From Pseudovirgaria hyperparasitica (lineage: Eukaryota), in NCBI GenBank assembly GCA_010093815.1, contig ML996571.1: 64,000 nt of DNA; one strand, 5' to 3'. Both the position numbers and the translations under genes were made by a program. This document shows, piece after piece, positions 1,261 to 30,158 of the stretch (position 1 is its first letter; every line of letters begins with the position of its first letter). The notes under the pieces are model-generated. The model made no database searches. It was not told the DNA's origin and saw nothing but the letters and a program-made list of their open reading frames with translations.

Positions 1261-1699
1261 TAGCTAGCTTAGAGGAGGTATACTCGTACGAAGAGTAAGG
1301 GATTAAGTATTTAGTATATATAATCTTAGATAAGGTAAGGGAGATCTAATTAGAGATGAAGTAAGATTAATAATCTCTATATTAATAACGAGGGTTTACT
1401 AGTAATCTAGATAGGTAGCCACTTCGTACGAAGAGTGGTACATCCTAGTTTTAGGGTAGTAGTTATAGAAAGCATTTAATACTAGCATAGCTATTTAAGA
1501 TAAGAGTGGAAAGGTTTTTATATAAGGAGAATATTAGAAAAGAGAGATAGGGCTATAAGTTATAGAATAACTAAAGTACTCCCGTACGACGCTACTTCCT
1601 AGATTATCCTTTATCTACCCTATTATTATTAAGATTAGACGCCTTAACATTCTTAAGAGGGGTTCCCTATATAGTCTATTAGTACACCGCTCTTTATTC

Positions 1700-3277
1700 T
1701 CGTACGGAAGAATAATACTTATAAACTAATTAGGATCTAGATATGGATGTACTAGAACTTCTAGCCGAGGGGCTATTCTAGTATAGATATGGTCCTAAAT
1801 CCTACGGCGTAGCTGAACATAGATATCTATAAATAGACTTCTCCGTTCTTTAGCCGTATGAAGCGGTGTACCTCTATTAAAGCTAAGATCTTCGAGCTGG
1901 TTCGTATACCATAGTAGTATATTAGATAGTAGATATACATCTATATCCTAAGCTCCTGCCTAGCCTCGGATAGTAGTAAGAGCCTCTTGATTAATAGGTA
2001 CTACTCCACGTTTAATACCTTTAGCTAGTATAAAGTAATTTCGTACGGGTGGTCTAGAGATAGTAGATAGTCGATCTCTCTATTTTCGAATAGGATGCTG
2101 ATTCCATATCTATATAAAGCTTGAAACTTCCGTATAGAGAATTAGGATATAGATTACCTAAATAGTAATCCGATCTATATAACTCTATGTATTAAAGATA
2201 CCTCTCTACTTAAGCTCTAAGAAGAAGTTCTAAATATCTATTAGCTAAGTATAATATACTACTATACGATACATACCCTCCATCGGAATAAGAGTGCCTT
2301 AGAAAGCTATACCTACTAAGCCTTAATCCTTTAATTAGATGTACTTATCCTAAACATCTAGTATTAATTTAGTAGAATCTCTAGGTCATTAACCTGGCGG
2401 AGATTCCACTAAATATTTACTATACGAGTTATCTTACTACCTCTATCACTTTATACGAAGCGTGGCTAGATACCTCTAATTCTTAAAGTTTCTAGAAACT
2501 AAAAGAGATAACTAACTACTATAGTAGATAAGATACTAATATAGGCCTAGATAATATATCTTAAGTATACATCTATATAGGTATAGATCTTAATACCGTA
2601 TAAGCTAAGCTTATGGTACCTATCTATACTCTAGATATAATCAGGACCTTTTATAATATACTAGCCTCTATAGCGCTAAAAATCATAATAGCGGCGTTAT
2701 ACGCCCTCTGGATTTAAGATCTTCATAGCCTAAAATAGCCGATCTCTAGATAGATTCTTAGAATAAGTCTTTATATATAGATAGAAGGGTATAGATACCG
2801 TGTAATCTAGACTCTAGCTCCTAGGAAATGTGCATGGAGTAGGCCTCGACTAAACCCATTAATTACTCCTGACTCTAAGCCTTCCCGTACGAGCTGCATT
2901 ACCTTCTTACTTTTAGCCTATTATGTATTAATACCCCGTACCTTTCGTACGATACCCATATCTATACGACGGCGATATAGAGAACTCTATAAGATCTTAA
3001 ACCCTTCTTCTTAAAGGATCCGAATAATCTTAGTATCTAGAAGAGCTAGTTTAAGGGTAAGAGTACGGATTCTATCCTATAGGCTCTCTCGTACGGAAGA
3101 GGGAAGTAAAGAAGAGTCCTTTTAAATCTTCTATGTAGAGAAATAGCGCTTAAGCGTACGATGGGATACTATAATACTATATACACGCTTAATCCAGGCT
3201 AGGAGATCATTCTAGGTATAACCAGAGGTATATTTTAAGATAATCTCCATCTAGAGATAGGCTATCTATTACGCCAT
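1700..3277 (-). pseudogene. RIP-inactivated DDE integrase-core transposase with N-terminal Clr5-like/HTH region; 2 introns (2798-2746, 2276-2230); C-terminal end uncertain
   Basis: Manual translation from ATG 3277 (* = TAA/TAG at Gln/Trp-like positions): MA**IAYL*MEIILKYTSGYT*NDLLAWIKRVYSIIVSHRTLKRYFST*K...GPDYI*SIDRYHKLSLYGIKIYTYIDVYLRYII*AY...PRFV*SDRGSK...MFRISTSN*RIKA**V*LSKALLFRWR|NFF...IWNQHPIRK*RDR. This matches the GPxxxWSIDGxxKL / RSDRGxE / GTSTxNQRIExWW / WNxHxIR pattern of integrase-core transposases. The GT..AG introns keep the frame. Confidence 0.85.
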
Positions 3278-3938
3278 TATATAAAGAGAGAAAATATATA
3301 TAGATAGGCACGTATTACGTACGAAGAGAGGGATATTTAGAGAGGGGGGGAGTAGGTTTAATGTATATAAGTATGCTTTCAAGGTGTGTGCCCTCGGCAA
3401 AAAAAAAGTGTGGCCCGCTGACACATACCGTCCACGATATCTACCACCTAAAACGTCAGCAGCCTATGGCCCTATTGCTCGGGCCCAATCAAAGCTGGAA
3501 GCCTCCTACTAATTACCACGCCAACATTCCCACACTCAAGAGACACTCTCTAAAACACGATTCGATATACTAAGGGGCGTGACTATTAGCGGGAGAAAGA
3601 CGCGAGCTTTCCACCTCACCTCATCTCATCAAGCTTGTCCGGGGGGACGATCGACTGCCGAGAGAGCAAAGTGCAACCAGTCCCAATCCATGGCCAAATC
3701 GTCAATCAGACTTATCTCATCCATCGCCGCTTCTCAAGTTCCAACAAACCCACTCCCGCTTGCCGCTATTACATTGACCTCGGACCCTCGCCCTTTATAT
3801 ACTCGCATGCTTCACGTTGCCTTTACCACCCTTTGCGCCTTTTACCTGATGTCACTTTCCACCTACAATCTGCTCCCACGGCAAATATACTGACACAGTC
3901 AATCAATCTATCTATCGCTCGTTGCAGATATCCATATC

Positions 3939-6681
3939 ATGCCCGGCATCCTCCCTATGAAGGTCATAAAGGTGGGGTCCAGCGCTCAGTCTCGCATAGC
4001 CCAAGCCTGCGACCGCTGTAGAAGCAAAAAAATACGTTGTGACGGCATCAGACCGAGCTGTACTCAATGCATCAACGTTGGCTTTGAGTGCAAGACCAGC
4101 GATAAGTTGAGCAGGAGAGCCTTCCCAAGGGGCTACACCGAATCACTGGAAGAAAGAGTCAGAGCTCTCGAGCTAGAAGTCCGCGAATTAAAGGATCTGT
4201 TGGATGAGAAGGACGAGAAGATCGATTTGCTTTCGAGGCTACACCCAAGCCACTCCCCTCGCTTGACTTCTTCTCCCATACACCACCCGACAGATCCGCC
4301 TACTCCTACAACAGAGAAGAGAGAAGAGTCACAAGAGAAGGATGACACTTTTAAGCTACAGCAGTCTCCGCTCTTGATGGAGGACGACAATGGTGATTCT
4401 TATTTTGCAGGACTATCTAGTGGTCACACTCTCGTTGGTAAGCTTCGTACAAAGCCTTTTTGGTGTTGGCTAACTCGTACAGATGCGTTCAAGCTCAGAG
4501 TCCAAGGAACTCAGCGCCCATGTTCTGAAATTAGACCCGACTCCTTCTTTCGCCCTCGACACGTTTCTGTTGTGGAGATTGAGCAGAATGGCAGTCGTAT
4601 CGTCTCGTGGAAAGCGCCTCCGCGTATGGTTTCCGATCAAATGATCAATATTTTCTTCCAGGAATGGGCACCCTTGTTCCCTGTTCTGCATCGGCCCACT
4701 TTCCTTACTATGTATGAGCGATATGTTGCGAACATAGAGGAGGTGACTGATAGAAACTCGCTTGCACTGCTAAACCTCGTCTTCAGCATCGGCGCCCTGT
4801 CATGCTCTGTAGGCAACACTCGCCACACAGCTGGATAATCACTAACAAGCTCACAGTCTCGCGACTCCTATGATATTGCATCCTTTGAGCTGCAATGGGA
4901 AGCCGCAATACAGTCACTCTTCTCAGAAAACTCCCTCCAGTTTCTTCAATGTCTTGTCCTCGCTCAAATCCATTGCATGCTCAGCGCCGACTATGCGAAG
5001 CTTCTCAAATACAAAGGTCTCGCTACCAGCCTACTGCTGCGGCTTGGCCTCAATCAGTCACAGAAACGCTTCGCCCTTGGCGCACTAACGATCGAAACTA
5101 GAAAGAAGGTCTTTTGGACGCAATACACTGTTGACTGGTATGCCTACCTCCTTTTTGCTCAACTCACTGGATGCTAACACAAAAAGCCTCTCTGCTGCTC
5201 AGCTTGGACTGCCTCGGATGATCAAAGAAGACAATATACACTGCGAATACCCAGTAGACGCTGATGACGAGCATGTCACAGAGACTGGCTTCTTATCGAC
5301 CTTACCAGGTGAATCTACCAAGGTTTCAAGTGCTCTCGCCTTATTCAAAGCTGCTCGTATCCTTTCGAGGGTATTGGGCCAAAGCTATCCGACATGTCCG
5401 TCGCACGACATATCATTTCGGACCATGGCCAGTCAAGCCGAAGAGCTGGACAGCTGGTACAATAATCTAGCTGCACATCTCCGTCTAAAGTTCGCGCAAG
5501 ACAAGCCTTCGGCCAATGTTACCGGAAGCCGGTCCCCAATTCTGGCCATTATGTACCATTATGTGCGATCACTCATTTTTCGGCCAGCCGTATGTGCAAG
5601 CCTTGGCCCGAAAAGCTATTCAGCAACACTTGCTGTTGGCCATTCCTCGAAGTCAATCGTTCAGATCATTCAGCTGCTGGACGAGCGCAACCTGAGCTTC
5701 TCTCTTGCTCTCAATCGCAACGAGCTGACCGTGCTCGCCGGATTCGGCCTCTTATTCCAGACATTACATACGGAACATGATGGAAGACTCGTGAAGGACA
5801 GCCAGAAAATGACCCTTGTCGTGGTTGACCTGTTGAAGAAGGCTCACGCGCCATATGCTACATCTTTCCGTCGTATCGGATACTCTATGCTTGCTTCCCT
5901 TCGTCCGACGATCAAGCAGTCGCCGCCACTATCTCGCCACAATTCTGACAGTAGCATGGGAGCGCCAAGCGAATCAGCTTTCAGTGTCACCCAGCGACAT
6001 ATCAAAGCGCTCGCTTCGCGCTTTCCTTCTATATCTCGCACTACCAACAACAATGATGCCCGCCGAGCTACCCTCCCAAATATTGGCATACTTCAGAACA
6101 ACAGCTCCACCAGTATAAACAGTCTCAATTCCAATCTGTCCGGGCCCATGTCTCGCTCCGAGCCCACGCTATCCCCAGTCAATACTCACACGCCGAAACA
6201 AGCTCGAGCCAGTACCGGGCCTCGCCAGACGCCAAATCTTGACTTTCTCTCTTTCGATAATACTCCAATTCCATCAAGCTACGAACCCACGCAGCTCATA
6301 CATCCACAGAAGCAAGAAGTTTCAACCTCAGACTGGGAGCGGCTTCTCGGTAGTCTTGACAACGGCACCACTAATATATATGACACCATTTATGGCGGTG
6401 TGCCTGCTGAAGCGCTGGTCGACGCTCCTATCCACGAGAACACGTGGACGTCTGACCTGTGGCTGAACGGCCTGGGCAACCCCCCTATTGAGCACATCTA
6501 CCAACCCAGTCCGGCAGTAGCACAGAGTGTGCTCAGTCTTTCGGATGAAAGTCTGACCAGTGGAGAGGAGTACTGCGCGGAATTGAGGAGTGTGGGGAGT
6601 TCCGGGCGAGAGCGATTTGGAAGTATTGTCATACCGGATATGAGTTCTAGTCTACCGCTGGAGACGAATTACGGGCTTTGA
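3939..6681 (+). CDS. facB: Zn(II)2Cys6 transcription factor FacB/Acu-15/Cat8 family (acetate utilisation regulator); 3 introns (~4438-4482, ~4808-4856, ~5138-5187)
   Basis: N-terminus MPGILPMKVIKVG..SRIAQACDRCRSKKIRCDGIRPSCTQC..GFECKTSDKLSRRAFPRGYTESLEERVR is the FacB signature. Fungal TF middle domain (FFQEWAPLFPVLH, RKKVFW). GT..CTAAC..AG introns join the ORF pieces. Confidence 0.93.
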
Positions 6682-7937: not shown

Positions 7938-9202
7938 TCATGCTCTAGCCTGCACCGGGCTAGCCGTTTCTTCCCTCATCCGTCCACGTACATCGTCCCC
8001 ATCAAATCCACTCGCTCGTTGATTCTTCTTTTTCTCTTCCTCTAGCTTCTCCTGTAACGCGCGGTAGTACCGCCCTGCTGCTTCTCTCGTGAACTCCTCG
8101 CCCGTCACCATCGGAAACTTCTTCAGCGGTCCCTGGATTCGGGTGTCCTTGCAGGGCTGGTTGAAGAATGCGATGCTGTATCGCTCGCCATAATAATCTC
8201 CTTCCTCACAGGGTGCCTTGACGCGATGGAATGTGCTCTTGAAGCGGTCATCGGACCATGACATGAGCAGGTCGCCAATATTGCAGATGATGTCGCCAGC
8301 GGAAAGGTGCACCTTGGTCCAGGCATCACCGCGACCAAACTCCGTAACAGTTTCACGGCCCGGGCAGATCTCGAGACCGCTCTGCGAGGCGTCACGCTGG
8401 AAGAGCACAGTCAGGAAGCCCCAATCGGCGTGGGCGCTGGCGCGCTGATAGACTGTGCCGTCCGCTGTGCGTGGCGTGGGATAGTAGTGTAGCAGTCTGC
8501 AACATGTCTGGCTGTTCGGTCGAGTGATGTCATGCGCCTTGATGAAGAAATCATCCTCGAAGCCCAGTCCTCGGGCGAGGCAGATCATGAGCTTCTCACT
8601 GACGCCCTGCACACGTCTCATGAAGCGCAGACTTCGCTCCTGGAACCCGGGCAGGTTCTCGTCCGGAAGCCACATGCCGTTCATGTTCTCGCCGAATTGC
8701 ATCTGATAGGACTCCTTGATGTCGGGCATGCCCGTGGACGGCCGGACTTGGGAGCACTTCTCCCAGCCGACATTGTTGGGATTCCAGGGGACGTTTGCCT
8801 TGACGGAATCCGGAAGCGAGAAGAAGGATTCAGAGGTCTGGAACATGGACTCAATCTCAGCAAGAGAGAGCCCGTGGTCGATCACAGAGAAAAATCCGAC
8901 ATTTTCCGCAGCGTCGACGAGTTCGCGGGTTATGATGTCGATGCGGCTATCGAAGTCGTGGAGGGAGATCTACTGCGTGGTAAGTTTCGTGTTCTGGCGC
9001 GGATATGCAACAGATGGCTTGTTTTATGGGAGGACGAAGGTATCATGAAGCGCTTAGGCACGAGCACAACATAATGTCGAAGCCAGCATGTCGGTAGTCC
9101 CACCCAAGCGAGAAGCAGCGAGATACCTAGTGGCGGCAACAGAGAAGAAGTGATGTCACATACCTTTGGAATCTCACGATCAACGTATTTGGTCTTCTCC
9201 AT
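7938..9202 (-). CDS. 2-oxoglutarate/Fe(II)-dependent dioxygenase (IPNS/DIOX_N family), ~356 aa; intron 9163-8970
   Basis: MEKTKYVDREIPK|ISLHDFD..AAENVGFFSVIDHG (DIOX_N). HxD in SAHADWGFLT, distal His in STFHRV, RYS 2OG-binding motif. Confidence 0.93.
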
Positions 9203-9333
9203 TGTGTTGATTAATTGATGGTTTGTTCGCGGCTAAAGAGTCTCTAAAGTCTGGTACGAAGCAGACACGGCTGCAAGATAGCGGCTATGAACTTCTTTTA
9301 TGTCGTGCGTCGTCTCTTAATTCCTGCTGTCTG

Positions 9334-9430
9334 CTCGCCCGAGAATGCGCAAGCCATCAGACCTTCCGTCGCTACTCTCGGCCGAGCTCCGCACAAGCAC
9401 TCTGCCTTGTTAATGAAAGCGTCGGTCGAG
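9334..9430. promoter_or_regulatory. Three (C)TCGGCCGA(G)-type palindromes upstream of the dioxygenase; putative Zn2Cys6 sites
   Basis: CTCGCCCGAG 9334-9343, perfect CTCGGCCGAG 9377-9386 and TCGGTCGAG 9422-9430, ~44 bp apart. Confidence 0.55.
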
Positions 9431-9814
9431 CTGGACAGCTTCAACTAAAACTCTTTACGTATGTTTCAGCTGGTCAAGAGTGCGTGTGGTGTTAGATTAC
9501 AGCTGCATCTGAGGATGGATGGGTTGCAGTGAGTGTACGGACGACCGAAGTAAACGATGGCGAGAACACCCGGTTCTGCCTTAGGCAGGAGCCACACAGT
9601 CTGCAAATAAGAAAACATGAGCATTTTCTTATAAACTAAACATTGAGGCTGATACAAGTCTAGGATCTATAAGCTCTCAGAGCGTATCTACAGGATTCGT
9701 TTGACGCATTCTCGGTGCGTACACCAGGATCCTATCAGTTCCGAGCCGGCACTCGATCACATTCGAACCGGAACAAGAAGTCCTGCTTCTTGTTCGAACT
9801 CTGAAGACAACATC

Positions 9815-10673
9815 CTACCCGTTGCTCGGCTCACATCCCCCTTTGTCTCTCTGACATCCTAGAGGACACGCTGCATCTGGGTTGAACTGCCACTGAAACA
9901 ACGGATCCGTCTCGTTTGCCAGCAAACCACCAAGGAGCCGGCTCTGGTACGGGAAATCGAAGCTCTCTCGAAAGATGTCGATAGAGGGCACTCTGATCTG
10001 GCCCCAGCCCTCGACGATCAGAGCGTCGATACTGGTGCCATAGATATACTCTCTGAATCCAGACCATCGGATCGCAGACGCACACTGACGAAAACGTTAG
10101 TCCAAACTGCCCAAGTAGTGTTCTGATATCCTCATATTGGAAATGATGTATGAACGTCAACAAGGGGAACGTACCATAGGACAGCTCTCTGCATTCGTAT
10201 AGAATGACAATTTTGGAAACGCTTCGAGGGCTTCTTTTGGTGAGAGTCTATATCTCCCATTCGGATCCGTCAGCACTGTGGTGCAATTGATTATCGCGGC
10301 AATTTCTCCTGGACACATCGTCAACTCTCCTTTCGCGCCCCTAGCCCCAAGGCTTCATCAAGACCATACCATGCAGAATCGGGTTCCCCGTTTTACTCCC
10401 ACTATTTGCCCCGATGCAAACTTCCTCCCCAATGCCCTCTCCACTGGTATGATTGACGACCACGCTTCCAAACGGTAGGAACGGACACGGCGATCTGGAG
10501 ACGTCCAATAATGCCGCATTCGCCCGTCTCATCCAGAACGCACGCGTGACATGCGAGACATTGTTGATGGCTCTTGTGGGACTACTGGTGATGTCGAAGT
10601 TCCAATGTGCGTCCACTGTGTCCACAAAGACCAGCAAGGTGGCAATGACCTTGAAGATCAGTATGAGCACCAT
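9815..10673 (-). CDS. Zinc-dependent nucleoside/nucleobase deaminase (cytidine-deaminase fold, guanine/cytosine deaminase-like) with predicted signal peptide, 235 aa; introns 10369-10309 and 10174-10085
   Basis: Spliced translation: MVLILIFKVIATLLVFVDTVDAHWNFD...RAFWMRRAN...SPCPFLPFGSVVVNHT...GNPILHG|EIAAIINCT...FYTNAESCPM|CASAIRWSGFREYIYGTSI...GWGQI...ANETDPLFQWQFNPDAACPLGCQRDKGGCEPSNG*. Contains the HxE and CxxC zinc motifs. Exons total 708 nt in frame, with canonical GTATGG/GTACGT donors. Confidence 0.9.
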
Positions 10674-11361
10674 ATCCTGTCACAGAATCATAGGCTTTGT
10701 GTGTGTATATGTGTCTATGTTTGTATCATATATAGAGGGACCAATAGTTCTTATCACAACACCATCATTTGCTACCGGCAGTCACCCAAGGGCTCTCTTT
10801 ATAACATCACATCTACCTACATCAGTTCCACCACGCATGTATCACTCCCGTGCCACCCGTGTCACAGACACACCATCATCATCATCATCATCATTCATTC
10901 ACCAAACTATTCGTCGCGTGCTCAATGCCTCGATGCCATGGAAAGGCACAGCAAGGCAGTCATCATCGATTCATCCCACGCACACAGCCATAGCAGCACA
11001 GCACTCACTCACCTATGCGGCGTTCAGGAGTGGTGCGAGGAAGGCATCTCGAATGTCTCTCAACTAGTACATTGCTACTCGCTCGTCTGCTGCCCTGATT
11101 GCTCGGGGGCACAACATGCGTGTTTCACGAACAGAGAAAAAAAGTAAAAAATGTTTTGGATGCCTTGGTGGCCTGGGCGCCAGTCAACGAGGATCATCGG
11201 TACAAAATAGGGAGAAGCGAAACTGTGCCACAGCAGCCCTAATTATTACCGCGTACGTATTGAATGCCTCCATTGGTAAATTATACAGAGTCTTTTCCGC
11301 AACGCCACAATCAGTCAGTCCTTGGCAACACGGTGTACTCAAAAGGCTGGCAGTCTGACAT

Positions 11362-12189
11362 CTCGGCCGAGGCGTGGATGGATATGGTTTGTTGTTGTTG
11401 TTGTTGATGATGTTGTCGACAAACACGGAAACATCATCATCTTTCTCCAACCACGTACGTTCAGAGTGCTTCTCTGTCTCTCAATACGGCGCACATACCC
11501 GAAATCGTGCAGACCCGGCGTTTCAATTTGGACGACAACAGCAGTGCAGCAGCCCTTTCCACCCCCCCAAAACCAATATGCAGTCATCCAATGCCCGTCT
11601 CGCAGCAATCACAACTCGCAAAAAAGCCAAAAAACCGAAAAAAACAAAAAAGGAAAGCTCCCAGCAATGCCGCATCCCGGCACATGCACGAGAAAGAAGA
11701 AGGAGGAGAAAAAAATCCCCCGACCCGCGCCCATCCTAGCAGAAGCAGAAGACGAACACCCGAGAAAACTATAGCAACTAGGTAGGTAGGTAGTGTAGGC
11801 TGGTAGATAATTAGGTGGGTGGTGATACAGACAAGGAAAGGCTGTAAGAAAATACTGTATTGTCCCAAAAAAGAAAAAAAAAAAGAGATGGACTGCCCTG
11901 CGCCACATTGAGTAATACCTACTACTTTCGCTTTCGGCCTTAAGCAAGCATCCGGATGTGCGGTGTGCAACTGCATTGGTCAACTCCTACTCCTCCTCCT
12001 CCTCTTCCTCCCCGATGGTCCAAACTCCAAAGCATTGCTTTTCTCCCGCGCCGCCGCCGCGTGTCAGGCCTTCTAGTTCTCCGCGGGCGGACGGGTCAGA
12101 CATACTTCAGCTTGTCCAAGCCATAGGGCCTGGCCGGCCGAGCTTCCTACCCCATCACGTATTCACTTGAACAGGGGCGCCTCGGCCGA
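11362..12189. promoter_or_regulatory. Further TCGGCCGA-type palindromes upstream of the deaminase
   Basis: CTCGGCCGAG 11362-11371, CGGCCGAG 12135-12142, CTCGGCCGA 12181-12189. Confidence 0.45.
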
Positions 12190-12558
12190 TGTGGTCGTGG
12201 CCGCCATTCAATCAGCACTTGATATTAGGTGAGAAGGTGGTGGTAGTAGGCATGTGTACACGGTCGTGATGGAAGTTGCATCTACATGCATATCAATGCA
12301 TATATTGATGCGGGTGCCTCGTTGTCAATGGACCGAATACTGGATGCCATATTCAAAATGGCATGACGTGAAGTTCGAGGTCACACATATCTACTTCAAA
12401 AGTTCTATAGACCGAATACAGATACCCTGAGTCCATAGTATCGATCAAGCAATACTACACGTATTGCCGCGCTCGTCACCTGTCATAATCCCGATATATA
12501 GCCATACCGAGTAAAACCACTCCAAGATAGACCCGATGCTTTCCCATCCTAATTATCG

Positions 12559-15089
12559 TTACCAAAGATTGAACGAAACATCATTATTCGCAAGATATAA
12601 TAGATTCGAAAACGAATCTGGCCCAACAAGATCACCACTATTGTTATATGGATTCGCTGCATATGCCATGCCCCCATGCATATCGTCCTGTGGGTTTCGT
12701 AGTGTAGGATCCAGCTCTACCTGGTTCGTTGGATTGGGCAAAAAGGTATTTGGGAACTGCGGATTGAACGTGTTTGCATATGGCACGGCCTGGGAAATGT
12801 CGTTCTCGGGTGCGGGGGGTGCCGGGGGCGGCGGGGCTCGTGCATAGTAAGGGTGGGCTGTGGCAGGGGCATGTGTATTGTTGTTTAGGTGATGTTGGTT
12901 TCGCACTTCGTGGTGTTGTTGCTGAACAGTTGGATGTTGACGGGATGCATCGGGTTGTTGCTGTTCAGAGGCTTTCTTGCCGTGGCCCTCAGAGTAGCGC
13001 TTGACGAAGTTTGTGACGTCGAAGCCACGCACACGTTTGGTTGAGGCGCCGTCGTGGTCCTGGGTGTCGGCTTTGCGTTTGTTGCTGTCAAATTCCGGGG
13101 CCTGACGGGCTACGCGCTCGGCCTCCTTAAGCAGGGCAGTCAGGAGACGAGCACCTCGGATGGCTATCATGCTATTATGACAGTTTTGTAGAATCTCATT
13201 GGCCTCCTCGATCAGGCGACGGTGTTCACCGTATTCCTTGTCCGCAGGCTGACGATACAGAATGTCGAGACTGAGTATGATTGCTGCAGCGACTGAGAAA
13301 GCCTGATGAATCCAGAAAACAGGCCCATCCTCCCGTACGACAGCTTTGTACTCCCTGATAATGGTCTTCGCACAATTGAGGCAAGTCCTCCGGGTGAAGG
13401 CAAATGCAGGGTTGGTGAAGCTTGGCCCCAGAAATTTCCGATGCACCATAATGATCTTGTGATTGCCGCTGATGGCCAGCGCCCTCCGCGCCCAGGGCAC
13501 GAAATGGGGGCAATTGCGCTCCATGGGTATATCAGTCTGGAATAAAGGATTACCAGACGAAAAGACATTACGTATCTCCTTGTCAAACCTGATGACCTGT
13601 TCATATTTCGTATATGGCGTGTTGTTTTCGCTCAAAGCGTCCTGTAACCGAGGCATCAGAGCCGCAAGTCTGCTGTGTACACGACAAAAACTTGTCATGG
13701 TTGGTATCGACTCTGGAAGGCTTTCCATGTCATCATCGTTACAGTTTTTAGGTAGCTCAGATGTCGAGTAGAGAGGGTTGATGAGATATGCTTCGGAGAA
13801 TGGTATCGAAAACCAATCCTGTGTACACAGTTGCAACCAGGTTCGTCGACCGGTCTCCTTCTCTACGACACTACCACGAGCCTCGTTGTTTAGTTTGTGT
13901 AGACCTAGGCCTTGGGCCAATTTTGTTGCTGCGGCTAGCAGGACCGATTGATTATTTGAATAGCCGAGAGTGTGAGCAGCCAGTGTCAGAGTGGCTATGG
14001 CCTGTACCGAGTGTACGGAATGACGCATCGTATACTCGCCAATGTTTAGGCAGATCATGACTGCTCTGAACCACCTCTTAGATAACATTTCCTGCTCTTT
14101 CTCCTGGAAACCCCACATTCTGGCAGTATTACCAGGCGCGGACGCGAGACTAACAGTCAAGACGGAGAAAAGTAGCGCGACCCATTGTAGGTCGACGCCT
14201 TCCTGTACAATGGACCCGTTGTGAGTGCCCAAGAAGTCCTCAAGCTGTTTCTTAAAGGTGGGACCGAAGAAAGAACCATGGTACCACAGAACATGAAGAA
14301 GGTGATACTCCACAAGATACCACAACTGACGCGGATCAGGTAGCAGCAATTGTAGTAGACTGAGTTGAGAATGCTCAATTGGCTCAATGTTGTCTAGCGA
14401 TAGTGTTGTACGCGCATCACCAAGCTCGCCTGTTCGGTTTATTCCATAGTGACTTTGCGAAGAGGCGACTGTGTTATAATCGGGATTCTTCCTACGGCCC
14501 CAGGCAAGGAACTCCAGTATGGTGGCGGCATCTTCTATTTCGGATGTGTTCAGGTGTGTTTTGGCTGAGGGTTCGGTGTGATTTCGCTGCAAGGCGGGAA
14601 GTGGTTTCATAGGTGCAACCGGCGCTACATCCAATACATCAGTACTATGGCCGTTGCGCATATAGCAGTATGGTACCTGTTGGTGTGGCTACTCCGAGAT
14701 GCCGTTCAGGTACATGGCGACCGGTACTGGTGTTATTGCCTTGAAGAGCAGCTTCGAGCTCCGCGATGCGCCGCCGCAAGCCATCTACTACTATTGGATC
14801 ACTACCAGTATGAGAGCCATATGAAGAGGTATGAGGTATTTCATGACGTGTGGCTTCATGGTGCACGACCGATTGATCTCGAGGGAACTGGGGTTTGTCG
14901 ACATCGTCGTCCCGCGTACAAGCATCTTGAACGCCTCTGAGTATGGGATTAGAAACAGCCACATGGAACCAATGGTAACAACACTCACTTTCGTATACAG
15001 TTATTACACGGGATCTCCTTATTGCACTTGACCTTACGTCTTGTGCATGCCGAGCAAGCCAAACGCTTTCGGTTGACGGCGGTCGACAT
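12559..15089 (-). CDS. Zn(II)2Cys6 transcription factor with fungal TF middle homology domain; introns ~14988-14939 and ~14677-14628
   Basis: Exon 1 MSTAVNRKRLACSACTRRKVKCNKEIPCNNCIRK then RGVQDAC gives six Cys. Middle domain has ATKLAQGLGLHKL, ETGRRTWLQLCTQDW, IIMVHRKFL. Confidence 0.9.
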
Positions 15090-15110
15090 CGCTCACGTTC
15101 CAGGTTATGG

Positions 15111-15408
15111 TCGGCCGAGAGTGGGTACGGGTGACTGGACCCTATGGGAGCGTTTAGCGTTCAGCCCGTATAGACGGGACGGTATTAGAGTACATGGCGA
15201 TATTGCGGAGACGATGGCACTGCTGTTCAAATGCGCGATGTAAGGAATTAGAGTGGTGTTGAGTTCGTTGGGTCGGGGATGGTGTGACTACGACCTAATC
15301 TCCCGCGCGAAAGATCAAGCGGCCAACACCCCTACCTTCTTCGACTTGCGCGCTTCGTCAGGCCGGCTAAGGGCCGCTGCCGATCCCATCTCCTCGGCAC
15401 TCGGCCGA
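15111..15408. promoter_or_regulatory. Two TCGGCCGA palindromes upstream of the Zn2Cys6 gene (possible autoregulation)
   Basis: TCGGCCGAG 15111-15119 and CTCGGCCGA 15400-15408. Confidence 0.5.
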
Positions 15409-15554
15409 AGGTTGTTCCTACCCTCCTCACTGGTATCAGAATCGCAGTACAGATTATTCGAGACATGTCTTGTCTATGAACAGTACTATCTAGAATCCAG
15501 TCTACAATAATGAAGAGATAATGCAATTTCTATCGAACGGTCTGCGCTCAGAGT

Positions 15555-15840
15555 CTGGGGTATTTAACATGACACTGTACATTCCCACGTCTCAAAGGCA
15601 CATCCAAAGTTACATCCAACATCCACTACTACCACACTGTGCATACAGCGTTCATATATGTTGGAAAACTACATTCATGGCCTTGTTCTGCATCAGTAGC
15701 CCTGGGGTATTCAATATGACACTGCAAATTCCCCCGGTCTAAGAGGCACATCTAAAATTACATCCCCTGATAGAATGTGCGTACTGCATTTGTGTATTTT
15801 GGTGGGCTACAATCATGGCCTTGTTTTGCGATCAAGCAGT
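15555..15840. repeat. Diverged tandem duplication, period ~147 bp, 2 copies
   Basis: CTGGGGTATTTAACATGACACTG..GGCACATCCAAAGTTACATCC..CTACATTCATGGCCTTGTT at 15555 versus CTGGGGTATTCAATATGACACTG..GGCACATCTAAAATTACATCC..CTACAATCATGGCCTTGTT at 15702. Confidence 0.85.
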
Positions 15841-16445
15841 TGGCGGGAAGGGATGTGTGCATTATCAGTGTAACAGGCGCAGCGCATGGATGAATGAATT
15901 ACAAAAGATGTCTGTTGGTCTCTTATTCCTCCTCCGAGCTGGAGGAGAAGCTTACCTGCAGGGAAATGAGATCCATCAGGTCATGGTCACAGGCAGCGAG
16001 CACGCGCAGTGATAGTTCTGATCTATTTTCAAAGGTAACAAACTGACATACAAAATCCACAAAAGTTCTATCAGTCTACAATTTGGTCCTGTATCGGTGT
16101 ATGACTCGACTGGATCAAGCATACCTTCTACAAACTACATCCGTTGGCAATTTCCATGGAAATCCGGCTATAAACAATCCTGGATCCTTGGGACCAAAGT
16201 GGCTGGCCATGATGGTCCAAATGATAAGTCCTTGGTATGGTCCATTATCACAAGGCATGTTCCTGGGCTGCAAGAGGTCCTGGGGAGATGCAAGCGATGA
16301 GCTCTACCTGAGCTTTCATCCTTGACTTGGATTTGCCCAGCCTGGGTTAAGATCCAATGATTGAAATCCTTGGGGTGCATACTAACCTGAGATGCGAAGG
16401 TCGATTTTATCGAGAAGATTAAGCCGTGCGCCAATCATAGCAAGT

Positions 16446-18037
16446 TCAACCGGAAGCAGGCATGTGTGCTCGCATAATGTCTTTGAGGAGGTCGGACGCT
16501 TTCATGAAGTCGGCATAACCGGTGTCGTCGTTGGGGTCCTGAACTTTTTCAAGAAGTTGGAAGACAACCTTCCGCTGGGCAGTGAACTTCTTGGCAAGAA
16601 GTTCTTTCTGTTGCTTGGCAGCCTCTTCCGCCTTCTGGGCGCTCTGATCGACAACAGGTGACTTGGCAGCCTTTTGTCGTTTCTCGGGAATTTCATCGGG
16701 AGTGTCAGTGGCTTTACGTTTACGGTTGCCTTGGCGCTTCGTAGAGTTGTTTGTTGTGGAGGGTGTTGCATCTTGCTCAAGCGGGGAAGCACTTCCGGTG
16801 TAGTCGTGCACTCGTTTCATATGGTCAAACAAGTTGTAACGACGTGGAAAACCATTGCCAGGCAGGGAACGCTCGCAGTCGGGAAAGGAGCAGAGGTGAG
16901 GCTTAGAGCCATGGCCGTGCATTCCATGAGCCTCACGCTCATGGCGAAGGAGACAGGCAGTGGATGAGAAGGGAGTGTTGGCGCACGATGCCACCTTGCA
17001 TCGAAAAGGTCGAAGGTGCGAATCGACGTACTTGTCGTAGTTGCATTTGAGCTTTGTTGGCTTGTGTGTGCAACCAGCTTCACCTTCGTGGGGGCAATGG
17101 TACTTGTCGTCTTCTGGATTGGGTAAGGCCGAGTACAGAGGATGAGTCCGGGCCAGTTTTGTACTTTCGGCATCTTCGAGGCTGTTGGTAGAGGAAGCAT
17201 CCTCTTCGGCTTCCTCATAGTAAACTTCTGTGTCGGTAACCTTGCTGTTTTGAGTCACATCCAGCGTCTCCTCAGGGCTGAAAGGGCTGTTAGAAGCATA
17301 TTTAGAGTACACAGGGCGGGCACTGACCTTTGGAAGGTGAAGTAATTGTTGGGTGGGAAAGCCTGCTGGCTCATGGTGCCTGATGGCCATGTAATCGGGG
17401 ATGAGTCGTGGTAGATCATGGGCGTTGCATATGTACTGAACGGATATGGGCCACTGTAAGTCTGAGCATCAGTAGTAGGCCAGTGGGCTTGAGCATCAGA
17501 TGTGAAGTCAAAAGCCGGTACACTAGAAAATGCATCGGCGTTATTGAAGTCTCCGATCGCACTCCGGCTAGAACCAGACTCGCTTGTAGGAAGCGTTATT
17601 TGGCCAAGATCCGAAACAGGGCCTTGGAATGGGATAAAAGATTCAGAGCTTAAGGAAGGAGAACATAGAGAACTGGAATATGCAGGATATTGGGCCTTGA
17701 GGTCCTGGCTGTGGCCCACTGTCCCGTCAGGGTAAGTAGCCCTCCTCGATGTGTCGGGTTGGCTCATGTAAGCGCTGTCGTTCATATCTGAAGCTGCTGA
17801 GCTGCCACCGTCCTTGGAAAGAAATTGGTCCTGGATGTATGCCATTTCGGAAAAGTCTTCCACGGGAAACTGTCCTGACTGGATCCACACGGCAGTATCC
17901 AACTCTGTCAAGGAAAATGATCCAACAGGCTCGCTGAAATAACCGTAAGTTAGTCGTGTACCTCGAATGGCTGAATGACGTTTGCAGGTTTGAACAAATG
18001 AAAGATACATGATGCCAAAGTATACAGGGAAAGCCAT
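16446..18037 (-). CDS. C2H2 zinc-finger transcription factor (resembles the Cos1/Ezf-type fungal family); introns 18008-17934 and 17328-17288; alternative start 17845
   Basis: YHCPHEGEAGCTHKPTKLKCNYDKYVDSHLRPFRC..C..FSSTACLLRHEREAH..HLC..C..FPRRYNLFDHMKRVH. A 41-nt GTCAGT..CTAACAG intron reconciles the two overlapping ORFs. Confidence 0.88.
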
Positions 18038-21000
18038 GTTAGTTCACGTCCGTGGTCCTGACACGCATTAGTATACATTCAGTATGGCTATATCGTATGT
18101 ACATACCGGTCTCATGGTCTCTGAGCGTAGAACCTGGGATTAGAGCAGGCCAGTTCCAGCTGCTGCTTGTGTTAAAAGGCCAGAGGATTGACAGGAGCAC
18201 CACCAGGTGGAAGGACCAGGAGGTACAAGGAATGCCAGTAAAACTGTGGTGGAGAACAATCAGGAAATCAAGAACCAGTTAGGTATTGGCCACGATCCAG
18301 TGGAAGGACACCCGGAGGAGCAATTACAAGCCAGGTCTCACCAGTTCGTTTCCACAAAGACTTCACCGGCTAGAAGTTAGTGTATGATCAAGCATGATGA
18401 TGACCATGATTTTGCCACAGTATACGTACCACGACAAATGGATATCCTGTGGATCCTGATGGTTTTGCCAGCTCAAGAGAGCTTGGCAATCCGCGGGAGC
18501 CTCCATGGCAGGCGGGATTACGGAACCGGCAAAACAAGGGCATTGGTCAGGTCCATCGCGTCAACCGAACCATCATGTAGTCCGCAGTCGCTAAGGCCAT
18601 AGAAGCATCACTGGTCAGGTAAAGGGCAAAAGCATAGAGATAGAGGACAGAGATTGTGCCAGTAAACTGACAAGATCTCGTCCCACTCTTCACTCAGCTC
18701 GGGATCAGGCACGGATGGGTGTGAATGGACACGGAGCAAATGACCTGGATCACGTTTTACGCACATGGACAAGTCCACTGCTGGGAACCTTGGGATTATC
18801 GAACTTCATCAATAGGCCAGTGGAACCAAAGCCGGACAGGCAGGAAACTTCAGGTAGCAAGGCCAGAGTAATGGTTCGATTGTTGTTTGCGACGATGTCG
18901 AGTCGCATAGTGTCCTTGAGCTTACCTTTGACATAATCGATACCTTGTAAGTGTATAGCGATTGTGTCGACCTGGTACCTTCAGAGCAATCCGTGTGGTT
19001 TCGTCGTCAGTCCTGGTGGCCTTGAAGGTCCTGCAAATCCAGATAACGTAGGCCATAAAGTGGTCCAATCCTCGGCGGGTATCTGTATGGCAACCCGCAA
19101 TGGCAAAAAAAAGCAGACTTTGATACAAGGAGAATTACATGAATATCAGATACAGGAATACAAGGCAATGCAGAGTGGAGAAGACTGAAAAACCGTCGGG
19201 TAATACCTGGTAGAGACGGGTCCTTTCTCGCGGTTGCGAGTGTTCATCATGGGTCCGATGGATATGAATGTGATACCTTGAAAAACCTCTGGATGGCGGA
19301 TATGAACGCTCAGTGTGTCGAGGTCGATTTGATGGGTGGTTGGTAGGGAGAATTGTTGGAGAACCAAAAAGTGGTGAGCGTAGGAAGTAGAGACGTGAGG
19401 GGTGTAAGAGACAGATGACGGGAAAATGGGTGGGGGTGGGCACGCGGTGGTTTAAAGGAAACAGGGAAGGGGGCCGACGTAAGCGAGCAGCGCGACGGGC
19501 TTGGAACACGGGAGGGGATGCAGCCCGCGCCGGTGCTTGGAGACTTTCAAGTTTAGGGGGGGGAAGTAGAGGAAAAGCAGAGAGACACGGGCTGGCGTGC
19601 TGGCGGGCTGACGGGCTGACCGGCTAAAGGGGTCAGGGTTTGACGTTTCGGCCAAGTTTGCTTGACGCTTGACCCTGCCATACCCTCCCTTTCCATGAGT
19701 GTTACGAATCGGGTGTAGTATCAATGTTTGTTTACTTACGTGGGAGTAATCTACATCGATGTCGTTACACAAAGGCCTTAGCTTGACCACTTGTGGACAT
19801 AATATACGTACATAGATGGTTTACTTGCTGATCAATAAACTGTTCATCCCTGCGATACCTTTACGTAGCGAAAACGAGCGTTGAGCAGCACGAGTCACGC
19901 CCCCCTTGGCTCCCTGTCAAGATCCTGTCTTCTTCCCACAAACTGACCAGTGACAAGTGATACTACTGACAGGCTGTGCTGAATCCTGATGCTGATGTGC
20001 ACACCGTCAGGGAAGTTCTCATCTCTCATCTCTGGAATTAATCATCACTTCTCTCAGAGTTCATTATTCAAATGAGGAAGTCACGGGCACCCGGCTGGCA
20101 CAGAGTACATATTCGATCTACAACAACAAACTCCAAGCTCCACCATGCTCTCACCATCGCGACTCATGATGGCAACCTCGTGCAGAATGTCCGTGTCAAT
20201 CTGTCCTTGTCCTTGTCCGTGTCCTTGTTCTTTGATCTTGATCTTGTTCTTGCTGTCGACACGGGTGGCACGGCTTGGTCGTCGCGCTGGCTATGATCGA
20301 GAAAACGCCAGTTAATACTGTACTATAGGTAACTACTGACTACTAACTACAATCAATCACGGCATCTTGAAATTCGAGCGGCTGCGGGACTTTTCGCTCC
20401 GCCCGTCGCACCGTCTGTGAGAACCGGGAGTTGCCTGTCTCTCATCTGCCGACTGAACCAAGCACTCATACTTACTGTACATACAAATTCTGTGACTTGC
20501 CGTGAAGAAACAAGGGCCGACAGTCGAACCCCCGTGGCCTTGCAATTATTCGCAATGGCCAGCGCACACTTGGTTTTCCCCAAATGCCCAAGTGTTGCAA
20601 CAGCTGATGCAGTCTAGTTTCCATCAAGGTTTGTCGTCGCACGTTGCATCATCCTGCATCCTCTTCGTAACCGGCGAGGATAGTCATGCCTCGTTGCCAT
20701 ATCCTGAAGCCCCGTTAGGTATCGACCTGCTCATCAATTCTCGATGTGGATGCGACAAACGTTCCTGGCATTCCTCGAATGCAAGTCGAAAATCATTACC
20801 ACAACTTGTTCTATACTCCTGATTACCTACAACAAGAACCAGGGTAATAGTTCTCGAAGAATTTTGTGCTGTGTGTACAGCCGAAAGCCCTGATAAAGAC
20901 CATGTTCATGTTTCTCTCATTTCTTCTGCTCTCTGGACTATCGAATCTCAATCCGAGACTAACGCAATATGACGATCGACGAGGCGGCAACTCAGAAATA

Positions 21001-30124: not shown

Positions 30125-30158
<34 letters not shown>

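What the first reader, a model, noticed from the sequence alone, without database searches (positions are those of the whole stretch)
7938..15408. Candidate self-regulated module: signal-peptide deaminase + 2OG dioxygenase + Zn2Cys6 factor
Seen: three consecutive minus-strand genes (dioxygenase, HxE/CxxC deaminase, Zn2Cys6 TF), each with TCGGCCGA-type palindromes upstream. Known: the IPNS/DIOX_N family includes thymine 7-hydroxylase, and cytidine-deaminase-fold enzymes act on guanine, cytosine, nucleosides or blasticidin S. Inference: an uncharacterised pathway that deaminates an extracellular (possibly modified) base or nucleoside analogue and then hydroxylates or demethylates it, for nitrogen scavenging or detoxification. 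No transporter was found in the module.
Basis: partly seen in the sequence, partly recalled or inferred. Interest (0 to 1): 0.8.

Follow-up and report, generated by a model that had tools for sequence, protein, structure and literature searches.

The report
Fungal regulator-dioxygenase pair with inserted secretory deaminase
A fungal transcription factor and an oxygenase that travel together in many fungi, usually beside a nucleobase transporter and a different deaminase, here flank a secretory-type deaminase carrying the same DNA palindrome, which points to an undescribed breakdown pathway for a nucleobase-like compound.

Summary
Three minus-strand genes lie at 7938-15089 in a Pseudovirgaria hyperparasitica scaffold: a 2OG/Fe(II) dioxygenase, a CDA-fold deaminase with a signal-like N-terminus, and a Zn2Cys6 factor. 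Five of the window's six TCGGCCGA copies sit in their non-coding flanks (about 1 expected in 64 kb).

The factor and the dioxygenase are a conserved pair. They share a scaffold in 10 of 12 named species seen in both hit lists. They are neighbours in 15 of 75 metagenomic fungal loci. The palindrome CTCGGCCGAG recurs 140-260 bp upstream of the dioxygenase in its five closest relatives.

In other fungi the pair is joined by an NCS2 nucleobase permease and an amidohydrolase-superfamily deaminase.

The CDA-fold deaminase itself is linked to the pair nowhere else: 0 of 75 loci, and different scaffolds in 4 of 4 species. Its two introns are unspliced in the only transcript-like contigs available. Its membership therefore rests on position and two to three motif copies in this one species.

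No substrate is shown. Verdict: a real, apparently undescribed regulon and cluster, with the three-gene module only partly supported.

The parts
7938..8969 (-). 2OG/Fe(II) dioxygenase, exon 2 (includes the stop codon)
   Evidence: Pfam DIOX_N 58.1 bits and 2OG-FeII_Oxy 62.3 bits. It matches P0036 (356 aa) at 100% identity over 100% of the query. Transcript-like contigs of both runs carry the 8969->9164 joint.
9164..9202 (-). 2OG/Fe(II) dioxygenase, exon 1 (ATG at 9202)
   Evidence: Gene model. The intron 8970-9163 is removed in contigs of both runs.
9377..9386 (.). Exact palindrome CTCGGCCGAG, about 176 bp upstream of the dioxygenase ATG
   Evidence: The same motif lies 144-256 bp upstream of the dioxygenase in loci L001-L005.
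9334..9343 (.). One-mismatch copy (CTCGCCCGAG) beside the exact site
9815..10084 (-). CDA-fold deaminase, exon 3 (includes the stop codon)
   Evidence: Gene model, letter for letter the same as P0001. The second Zn-ligand cysteine of the CPMC motif (C147) starts this exon.
10175..10308 (-). CDA-fold deaminase, exon 2
   Evidence: It carries the catalytic E of HGE and the first cysteine of CPMC. Both flanking introns (10085-10174 and 10309-10369) are present, not removed, in the contigs that cover them.
10370..10673 (-). CDA-fold deaminase, exon 1, with a hydrophobic signal-like N-terminus (ATG at 10673)
   Evidence: Mean Kyte-Doolittle hydropathy is 3.03 over residues 1-10.
11362..11371 (.). 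Exact palindrome CTCGGCCGAG, about 690 bp upstream of the deaminase ATG
12135..12140 (.). CGGCCG core copy (context TCGGCCGG)
12181..12190 (.). One-mismatch palindrome (contains TCGGCCGA), about 1.5 kb upstream of the deaminase and 130-210 bp past the 3' end of the factor's contigs
12559..14624 (-). Zn2Cys6 factor, exon 3 (includes the stop codon)
   Evidence: It matches P0156 (808 aa) at 100% identity over 100% of the query. Joint 14624->14677 in both runs.
14677..14936 (-). Zn2Cys6 factor, exon 2 (linker and a heptad-like stretch RRRIAELEAALQ)
   Evidence: Joints 14624->14677 and 14936->14989 in both runs.
14989..15089 (-). Zn2Cys6 factor, exon 1 (most of the Cys6 cluster; ATG at 15089)
   Evidence: Pfam Zn_clus, E 7.3e-8. 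Gene model.
15110..15119 (.). One-mismatch palindrome (contains TCGGCCGA), about 22 bp upstream of the factor's ATG and inside its transcribed leader
   Evidence: The contig reaches 15222.
15400..15409 (.). One-mismatch palindrome (contains TCGGCCGA), about 312 bp upstream of the factor's ATG and about 180 bp beyond the end of its contig

Best explanation
The Zn2Cys6 factor and the 2OG/Fe(II) dioxygenase are a regulator-target pair conserved across Pezizomycotina. They belong to a variable catabolic cluster for an amino-substituted, nucleobase-like N-heterocycle.

Inferred mechanism. The factor binds as a homodimer to the spacer-less inverted CGG repeat CTCGGCCGAG. Sites lie in front of the dioxygenase, in front of its own gene (autoregulation) and in front of other cluster genes.

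Shown by comparison. In other fungi the cluster adds an NCS2 (xanthine/uracil-type) permease and an amidohydrolase-superfamily deaminase. Some loci instead or also carry TauD-type dioxygenases and an NCS1 permease.

Inferred for this species. Neither the permease nor that amidohydrolase is in the 64-kb window. A secretory-pathway CDA-fold deaminase lies between the pair and carries the same palindrome. It has probably been drawn into the regulon and supplies the deamination step outside the cytosol. The product would then be imported and oxidised (hydroxylated or demethylated) by the cytosolic dioxygenase.

My odds for the separate claims: the pair and motif form a regulon, about 0.75; the substrate class is nucleobase-like, about 0.6; the CDA-fold deaminase is a working member, about 0.45.
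For: (1) The motif is clustered. Five of six TCGGCCGA copies in the window lie in the three genes' non-coding flanks, against 1.02 expected, with P = 1.2e-4 for the clustering. Exact 10-mers precede both the dioxygenase and the deaminase.

(2) The pair is linked. Orthologues of the factor and the dioxygenase have the same scaffold length in 10 of 12 named species present in both hit lists. These include locus tags RB595_004912 and RB595_004915 and an 83-kb contig; an unnamed 7.9-kb contig matches as well. The factor lies next to the dioxygenase in 15 of 75 metagenomic loci, and in 10 of the 22 loci with at least 3 kb on both sides. Factors taken from five of those loci (L002, L004, L012, L041, L047) hit only this factor gene in the window, not the second Zn2Cys6 gene.

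(3) The motif is conserved. TCGGCCGA lies 144-256 bp upstream of the dioxygenase in L001-L005; the distance in the window is 176 bp. Ten of 13 dereplicated factor-linked loci have at least 2 CGGCCG in the 700 bp upstream, 33 sites against 3.2 expected. These loci amount to about 5 of 8 independent lineages. In L004 three divergent promoters (TauD-dioxygenase, TauD-hydrolase, factor-NCS1 permease) each carry a CGGCCG-core site, a full TCGGCCGA in the first two. In L047 an exact 10-mer lies about 150-175 bp upstream of the factor.

(4) The context points to a nucleobase-like substrate. An NCS2 permease (TIGR00801, 307 bits) is next to the dioxygenase in 9 loci. A TRZ/ATZ, 8-oxoguanine or guanine deaminase-type amidohydrolase is next to it in 14 loci. 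L004 carries an NCS1 permease.

(5) The deaminase looks catalytically intact. H101, E103, C144 and C147 are invariant in 31 homologues. Its fold is nearest to guanosine deaminase, guanine deaminase and TadA.

(6) There is a precedent. The S. pombe zinc-cluster factor Toe2 has a ChIP-derived inverted-repeat CGGCCG motif, and the authors suggest it may bind as a homodimer (passages read).

(7) The factor has a heptad-like stretch after the Cys6 cluster, which fits dimer binding to a palindrome.
Against: The deaminase has no hit in any of the 75 dioxygenase loci. Its orthologues lie on scaffolds different from the dioxygenase or the factor in 4 of 4 comparable species, although the Phyllosticta comparison may span different assemblies.

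In contigs of both available runs (one sample) the region 9164-10681/10701 is continuous, so both deaminase introns are retained, while the dioxygenase and factor introns are removed. No contig shows the spliced deaminase form.

Eleven of 35 family members end in ER-retrieval-like tails: RDEL, KDEL, HDEI, HDEV and several -EL endings. The family may therefore work inside the secretory pathway rather than on external nutrients.

Two of the deaminase-side sites are far from its start (0.7 and 1.5 kb). One abuts the factor's 3' end.

Three factor-linked lineages (L006, L047, L036/L042) have no CGGCCG in the 700 bp upstream of the dioxygenase.

Only 5 of 9 permease-amidohydrolase promoters carry CGGCCG, and 4 of these 5 come from one lineage.

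The rest of the genome could not be searched, so the amidohydrolase and permease may exist elsewhere in it. No binding, induction or enzyme activity has been measured.
Confidence: 0.5

Rival explanations
1. The deaminase is a passenger. The conserved unit is only the factor and the dioxygenase. A rearrangement placed an unrelated secretory-pathway deaminase gene between them. The palindromes at 11362 and 12181 would then serve the factor or the dioxygenase (distal or 3' sites, or a long upstream transcript) rather than the deaminase. The deaminase would do something unconnected, such as acting on nucleosides or nucleoside antibiotics in the ER lumen or outside the cell.
For: The deaminase is absent from all 75 loci. 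It lies on different scaffolds in 4 of 4 species. ER-retrieval-like tails occur in 11 of 35 relatives. Its introns are retained in the only transcript-like contigs, which also run continuously from the deaminase start region into the spliced dioxygenase. In most other loci the pair is divergent and shares one promoter, so the extra sites here could be leftovers of a rearrangement.
Against: An exact 10-bp palindrome identical to the dioxygenase site lies in the deaminase's 1.9-kb upstream region. Only 2.1 matches with up to one mismatch are expected in the whole 64 kb. The enzyme class (deaminase of the guanine/guanosine/TadA clade) matches the step that a clustered amidohydrolase supplies elsewhere. 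That amidohydrolase is missing from this window.
Confidence: 0.33
2. The palindrome belongs to a different regulator, for example the second Zn2Cys6 gene at 3894-6681 or a broad-domain factor. The neighbouring factor would then not be self-regulated and might not control these genes.
For: No binding data exist. CGGCCG-type sites can be read by more than one zinc-cluster factor, S. pombe Toe2 being one example. A second Zn2Cys6 gene lies about 1.3 kb beyond the dioxygenase's 3' end.
Against: The motif travels with the conserved factor-dioxygenase pair across lineages that resemble different fungal classes. It occurs in front of the factor itself in L047 and in the shared divergent promoters. 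The second Zn2Cys6 gene is not hit by the factors tested from five of those loci.
Confidence: 0.1
3. This is a fragment of a secondary-metabolite cluster, in which the dioxygenase and the deaminase tailor a natural product under a cluster-specific Zn2Cys6 factor.
For: Zn2Cys6 factors and DIOX_N-type dioxygenases are common in fungal biosynthetic clusters (general knowledge).
Against: Pfam found no core synthase (PKS, NRPS or terpene cyclase) among the 46 ORFs scanned across the window, nor among the ORFs next to the pair in 16 of the other loci (14 in L004; 124 in 10 loci; 58 in 5 loci). The one squalene-hopene-type cyclase, in L006, lies about 7 kb away among unrelated housekeeping-type genes. 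The dioxygenase is 64-75% identical across classes, which is unusual for tailoring enzymes. The recurrent partners are a nucleobase permease and an aminohydrolase.
Confidence: 0.04

Closest known systems
Aspergillus nidulans nicotinate (hxn) regulon: HxnY dioxygenase, HxnR factor, clustered transporters
   Same: It is a Pezizomycotina cluster for breaking down an N-heterocycle. It holds a DIOX_N + 2OG-FeII_Oxy dioxygenase of about 350 aa, transporters, divergent gene couples with shared promoters, and a pathway-specific factor (passages of PMC8478523 read).
   Different: HxnR is a C2H2 factor with a predicted GHGGGG-type site, and the hxn transporters are MFS. Here the factor is Zn2Cys6, the site is CTCGGCCGAG, and the partners are an NCS2 permease and an amidohydrolase. 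No hxn-type neighbours (MFS partner, molybdenum hydroxylase, OYE reductase) were seen around the dioxygenase in the loci scanned.
Neurospora crassa thymine 7-hydroxylase (thymine dioxygenase, PDB 5c3p)
   Same: It is the best solved-structure match of the dioxygenase by sequence (E 2.5e-21, 79.7 bits over residues 24-279) and acts on a nucleobase.
   Different: The score is far below that between orthologues (495-541 bits, 64-75% identity). It is a family relative, not an orthologue. The substrate cannot be inferred from it.
CDA-fold purine and triazine deaminases: B. subtilis GuaD (1wkq), N. europaea NE0047, Arabidopsis guanosine deaminase (7dbf, 7dc9), M. smegmatis Msd (5xko); also TadA/ADAT2
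   Same: HxE and PCxxC zinc site. The predicted fold (pLDDT 83.7) is nearest to these: 7dc9 E 8.3e-8 and TM 0.71 by target; NE0047, Msd, ADAT2 and TadA follow closely.
   Different: Only 16-24% identity. It has a signal-like N-terminus, six extra conserved cysteines, conserved N-X-T sequons and a C-terminal extension of about 70 residues. Some members carry ER-retrieval-like tails. The database name 'guanine deaminase' is not backed by any test (E 0.004 to 1wkq).
Schizosaccharomyces pombe Toe2 (binuclear zinc-cluster factor)
   Same: Its ChIP-derived motif is an inverted CGG repeat without spacer, CGGCCG, and the authors suggest it may bind as a homodimer (bioRxiv 10.1101/2024.08.20.607873, passages read).
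   Different: Orthology with the window's factor was not tested because no Toe2 sequence was available. Toe2 target genes were not examined here.
Aspergillus nidulans purine regulon under UaY (recalled, not from a call)
   Same: A Zn2Cys6 factor controls nucleobase permeases (UapA/UapC, NCS2 family) and catabolic enzymes, including a 2OG-dependent xanthine dioxygenase. As I recall it, the site is TCGG-N6-CCGA, which has the same half-sites.
   Different: The half-sites here have no spacer. The UaY regulon is largely unclustered, and XanA belongs to the TauD family, not the DIOX_N type. All of this row rests on recall.

Membership tests
Cytidine/deoxycytidylate deaminase superfamily (PF00383) | Zinc-binding and catalytic H-x-E motif plus P-C-x-x-C motif | tested here: met
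   HGE at residues 101-103 and CPMC at 144-147. H101, E103, C144 and C147 are invariant in 31 homologues.
Cytidine/deoxycytidylate deaminase superfamily (PF00383) | Profile score above Pfam's gathering threshold, and the deaminase fold | tested here: met
   PF00383 scores 38.2 bits against a cut-off of 25. The AlphaFold model (pLDDT 83.7) matches GSDA, ADAT2, TadA, NE0047 and Msd at probability 1.00.
CDA-fold guanine deaminase (the database name of P0001) | Close sequence relation to characterised GuaD or NE0047, and guanine-specific pocket residues | tested here: inconclusive
   The match to 1wkq is only E 0.0042. The hits are spread over guanosine, guanine, triazine/isoguanine and tRNA deaminases at 16-24% identity. 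Pocket residues were not analysed.
Secreted or secretory-pathway protein | N-terminal signal peptide, with lumenal hallmarks (disulfide cysteines, N-glycosylation sequons) | tested here: inconclusive
   A hydrophobic N-terminus (10-residue mean hydropathy at least 1.5) occurs in 29 of 35 family members. The rest look like truncated models. C63, C86 and C110 are invariant, and C219, C223 and C230 nearly so. The sequons N74-H-T and N203-E-T are conserved. No signal-peptide predictor was available.
PcbC/IPNS-type 2OG-Fe(II) oxygenases (DIOX_N + 2OG-FeII_Oxy) | Both Pfam domains above threshold, with the H-x-D...H iron triad and a 2OG-binding Arg | tested here: met
   DIOX_N scores 58.1 bits and 2OG-FeII_Oxy 62.3 bits. 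H193, D195, H261 and R276 are invariant in 17 orthologues. Their roles are assigned from family knowledge.
Thymine 7-hydroxylase | Orthology to the characterised N. crassa enzyme | tested here: not met
   79.7 bits to 5c3p, against 495-541 bits between members of this dioxygenase's own orthologue group.
HxnY (nicotinate cluster dioxygenase) | Divergent pairing with the MFS transporter hxnP, and other hxn genes nearby | tested here: not met
   No such neighbours appear in the loci scanned. The only MFS gene, in L047, is about 5 kb away and is not a divergent partner. Direct sequence comparison with HxnY was not possible.
Zn2Cys6 (Gal4-type) fungal transcription factor | CX2CX6CX5CX2CX(6-8)C cluster, followed by a dimerisation coil and a fungal-specific middle domain | tested here: met
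   Zn_clus E 7.3e-8. The Cys6 pattern CX2CX6CX5CX2CX7C lies in residues 12-40, followed by the stretch RRRIAELEAALQ. Fungal_trans is only a weak match (E 0.019, below the cut-off).
Fungal catabolic gene cluster with a pathway-specific, autoregulated factor | Conserved co-location of the members across species | tested here: met
   This holds for the factor, the dioxygenase, the NCS2 permease and the amidohydrolase. It is not met for the CDA-fold deaminase (0 of 75 loci; 0 of 4 species).
Fungal catabolic gene cluster with a pathway-specific, autoregulated factor | A shared cis-element in the members' promoters, including the factor's own | tested here: met
   Three lineages lack the motif upstream of the dioxygenase.
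Fungal catabolic gene cluster with a pathway-specific, autoregulated factor | Co-induction by the substrate and dependence on the factor | not testable with these tools
   Only assembled contigs of one sample were available. These cannot give expression levels or conditions.

The most novel reading that the evidence does not exclude
A widely conserved but undescribed Pezizomycotina pathway breaks down an amino-substituted purine- or pyrimidine-like compound, for example an oxidised or methylated guanine or adenine derivative. It comprises an NCS2 permease, a TRZ/ATZ-type aminohydrolase, a PcbC-type 2OG dioxygenase and a Zn2Cys6 factor that reads the spacer-less palindrome CTCGGCCGAG. In Pseudovirgaria the cytosolic aminohydrolase arm has been replaced, without homology, by a secretory-pathway CDA-fold deaminase. 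This moves the deamination step outside the cytosol and gives a first functional context for an uncharacterised fungal family of secreted or ER-resident deaminases.
Probability: 0.25. Interest if true: 0.75.

Novelty: new variant of a known kind. Interest (0 to 1): 0.58.

Why it matters
Fungal breakdown of N-heterocycles is known in detail for only a few routes, such as purines and nicotinate in Aspergillus.

This locus gives three testable things. The first is a factor-motif pair (Zn2Cys6 with CTCGGCCGAG) conserved across fungal classes. The second is a recurrent four-gene cluster whose enzymes imply deamination followed by 2OG-dependent oxidation of a transported nucleobase-like compound. 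The third is a family of several hundred secretory-pathway CDA-fold deaminases that databases call 'guanine deaminase' without evidence.

Identifying the substrate would fill a gap in fungal nitrogen scavenging. It would also correct a widespread annotation.

Tried and rejected
- Pfam on single deaminase exons gave nothing useful. This was resolved by using the full database protein P0001.
- The window's own genome is not held. No genome-wide motif scan was possible, nor a search for the amidohydrolase or permease elsewhere in this fungus.
- The records behind the metagenome loci could not be searched for the deaminase.
- The look-up of sequencing runs: no RNA holder listed. The two runs found (one sample, one study) have no kind on record. 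I used only what their contigs cover or bridge, and neither depth nor uncovered stretches.
- Eight literature searches were run. 'TCGGCCGA' returned primers and unrelated uses. Searches combining nucleobase, amidohydrolase, dioxygenase, cluster, Zn2Cys6, thymine 7-hydroxylase, xanthine dioxygenase and uric acid-xanthine permease found no description of this cluster. The species name brought only taxonomy and genome papers (listing only).
- Iyer et al. 2011 (PMC3239186): the passages read contain no secreted fungal TadA/GuaD-like clade.
- S. pombe SPCC1494.01, an 'iron/ascorbate oxidoreductase family' gene, is listed as induced in a paper on nitrogen-limited culture (PMC4614384, one table row read). 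Its tie to this dioxygenase rests only on the 'UPF0676-like' name of P0040 and on my recall that UPF0676 is that gene. It is a lead, not evidence.
- A secondary-metabolite reading was rejected because no core synthase was found.
- HxnY identity was rejected on gene context.
- Complex prediction, the search of protein representatives and the second structure job were not used. None would have changed the verdict.

Full report
**What is there.** The window comes from a 1.67-Mb scaffold of the dothideomycete Pseudovirgaria hyperparasitica. Each of the three genes matches a database protein of that species at 100% identity over the exon tested, with the same total length as my model. All three genes are on the minus strand.
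- The dioxygenase is 9202..9164 + 8969..7938 (356 aa). Pfam gives DIOX_N + 2OG-FeII_Oxy.
- The deaminase is 10673..10370 + 10308..10175 + 10084..9815 (235 aa). PF00383 scores 38.2 bits and the HGE and CPMC motifs are present.
- The Zn2Cys6 factor is 15089..14989 + 14936..14677 + 14624..12559 (808 aa). Zn_clus has E 7.3e-8 and a heptad-like stretch follows the cluster.

Contigs of two public runs (one sample, kind not on record) skip exactly the dioxygenase intron and both factor introns. They therefore behave like cDNA and confirm those two gene models.

**The motif.** TCGGCCGA occurs six times in 64 kb against 1.02 expected, and none of 100 shuffles reaches six.
- Five copies lie in this locus: 9378, 11363, 12182, 15111 and 15401. 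The sixth is inside a P-type ATPase frame.
- The chance of such clustering in the finding's interval is 1.2e-4.
- The full element is the 10-bp palindrome CTCGGCCGAG. It is exact 176 bp upstream of the dioxygenase ATG and about 690 bp upstream of the deaminase ATG. Single-mismatch copies lie at 12181, 15110 and 15400.

Two qualifications apply. The 15111 copy lies in the factor's transcribed leader. The 12182 copy sits just past the factor's 3' end.

**The factor and the dioxygenase are a conserved pair.** The dioxygenase belongs to a very conserved orthologue group, 64-75% identical across Eurotiomycetes, Dothideomycetes, Sordariomycetes and Leotiomycetes.
- I compared the contig-length column of the two protein searches. 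Orthologues of the factor and the dioxygenase share a scaffold in 10 of 12 named species present in both lists.
- The ten are Corynespora, Paraphoma, Karstenula, Periconia digitata, Dactylonectria estremocensis, Mytilinidion, Plectosphaerella, Aulographum, Colletotrichum sublineola (an 83-kb contig) and Gaeumannomyces hyphopodioides (locus tags 004912 and 004915).
- An unnamed 7.9-kb contig matches as well. The two species that differ are Thyridium curvatum and Aspergillus karnatakaensis.
- A scan of metagenome contigs with a dioxygenase alignment returned 75 fungal loci. The factor lies beside the dioxygenase in 15 of them, and in 10 of the 22 loci with at least 3 kb on both sides. The two genes are usually divergent and share a promoter.
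- Factors taken from five of those loci (L002, L004, L012, L041, L047) hit only this factor gene in the window, not the second Zn2Cys6 gene at 3894-6681.

**The motif is conserved with the pair.**
- In the five loci with the most similar dioxygenases (L001-L005), TCGGCCGA, mostly as CTCGGCCGAG, lies 144-256 bp upstream of the dioxygenase.
- Ten of 13 dereplicated factor-linked loci have at least two CGGCCG cores in the 700 bp upstream. That is 33 sites against 3.2 expected from the loci's own background. These loci reduce to about five of eight independent lineages. L006, L047 and L036/L042 have none there.
- In L004 three divergent promoters (TauD-dioxygenase, TauD-hydrolase, factor-NCS1 permease) each carry a CGGCCG-core site, a full TCGGCCGA in the first two. 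In L047 an exact 10-mer precedes the factor.
- A spacer-less inverted CGG repeat has a precedent as a zinc-cluster site. S. pombe Toe2 has a ChIP-derived CGGCCG motif, and the authors suggest it may bind as a homodimer (passages read).

Binding by the window's factor, and hence autoregulation, is an inference from these patterns.

**What the conserved context says about function.**
- Next to the pair, or next to the dioxygenase alone, an NCS2-family nucleobase permease recurs in 9 loci (TIGR00801, 307 bits).
- An amidohydrolase recurs in 14 loci, two of them only as short weak fragments.
- The amidohydrolase's best matches are atrazine chlorohydrolase/TRZ-ATZ hydrolases, 5'-deoxyadenosine/MTA deaminases, 8-oxoguanine deaminase and guanine deaminase. 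All are below the family cut-offs, so it is an uncharacterised aminohydrolase.
- L004 instead has two TauD-type dioxygenases, two alpha/beta hydrolases, an NmrA-like gene and an NCS1 permease.
- One Curvularia gene model fuses the factor with a TauD domain.

This is the signature of a catabolic cluster for a transported, amino-substituted N-heterocycle: uptake, deamination, then 2OG-dependent oxidation.

The dioxygenase's best solved relative is N. crassa thymine dioxygenase. The score is only 79.7 bits, against about 500 bits among its own orthologues. It is not a thymine 7-hydroxylase orthologue. Its gene context does not match the nicotinate-cluster dioxygenase HxnY either.

**The deaminase.**
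- It is a distant CDA-superfamily member. The predicted fold (pLDDT 83.7) is closest to Arabidopsis guanosine deaminase, ADAT2/TadA, NE0047 guanine deaminase and Msd, at 16-24% identity.
- Its family is eukaryotic and mostly ascomycete, with some agaricomycetes. The nearest Atlas clusters hold 50-127 members each.
- Family members share a hydrophobic N-terminus (29 of 35), six extra conserved cysteines and conserved N-X-T sequons. The family therefore belongs to the secretory pathway.
- Eleven of 35 members end in ER-retrieval-like tails, including RDEL and KDEL. The window's protein does not.

The case for the deaminase belonging to the module:
- It lies between the conserved partners.
- An exact copy of the palindrome lies upstream of it.
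- It is the same kind of enzyme as the clustered amidohydrolase, which is absent from this 64-kb window.

The case against:
- It is absent from all 75 dioxygenase loci.
- It lies on different scaffolds from the dioxygenase or the factor in Baudoinia, Cladophialophora bantiana, Pleurostoma and Phyllosticta.
- The contigs that cover it are continuous across both of its introns, so the introns are retained. The same contigs run on into the spliced dioxygenase.

These contigs cannot show strand or distinguish separate molecules. A read-through RNA, an antisense RNA or poor splicing would all fit.

**Verdict.** The factor-dioxygenase-palindrome unit is real and conserved. I found no description of it, or of the four-gene cluster, in eight literature searches. 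The three-gene module as stated is only partly supported. The deaminase may be a lineage-specific recruit that replaces the amidohydrolase step without homology (my odds about 0.45), or it may be a passenger (about 0.33). No substrate is shown. The rest of this genome could not be searched, which leaves open whether the permease and amidohydrolase exist elsewhere in it.

Noticed in passing
window 9164-10701: In both runs one assembled contig runs continuously from just upstream of the deaminase ATG, through both deaminase introns (unspliced), into the spliced dioxygenase mRNA. This may reflect read-through, overlapping UTRs, an antisense RNA or intron retention. Strand cannot be told from contigs.
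   Followed up: partly
window 15140-15193: One run (X2) shows an extra 52-base joint with GT..AG ends on the minus strand, upstream of the factor's ATG. It is a possible alternative 5'-leader intron, lying between the ATG-proximal palindrome (15110) and the contig end.
   Followed up: no
window 10741-12166: A separate contig of run X1 covers almost the whole 1.9-kb stretch between the factor and the deaminase. It ends 15 bases from the palindrome at 12181. It could be an upstream transcript of the deaminase or a non-coding RNA. The stretch contains CT-rich low-complexity runs.
   Followed up: no
window 3894-6681 (+): A second Zn2Cys6 / Fungal_trans gene is convergent with the dioxygenase. It is not hit by the factors tested from five of the other loci.
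   Followed up: partly
window 15547-18043 (-): A contig that reaches beyond the laid stretch covers 15547-16500 and ends about 140 bp from the palindrome at 15400. The ORFs at 16449-17468 and 17258-18043 had no Pfam match, but their translation shows C-x-x-C...H-x-x-x-H zinc-finger-like spacing.
   Followed up: no
window 1-4000 and 22000-36000: Base composition shifts sharply: GC 0.34-0.40 in the first 4 kb and 0.55-0.62 between 22 and 36 kb, against about 0.50 around the locus.
   Followed up: no
L004 8217-20783: This is a larger version of the cluster: TauD, the dioxygenase, an alpha/beta hydrolase, an NmrA-like gene, a second TauD, a second hydrolase, the factor and an NCS1 permease, with CGGCCG-core sites in three divergent promoters. 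Its factor is 73% identical to that of Corynespora cassiicola.
   Followed up: partly
L012 4289-4462 and L014 6620-6793: Short amidohydrolase-like fragments (46-48% identity over 63 residues) lie beside the factor. They may be remnants of a lost amidohydrolase gene.
   Followed up: no
L013 7525-8274 and L009 10062-10670: In L013 an isochorismatase-family hydrolase lies upstream of the dioxygenase, in a locus without the factor. In L009 a second 2OG-FeII_Oxy gene follows the amidohydrolase.
   Followed up: no
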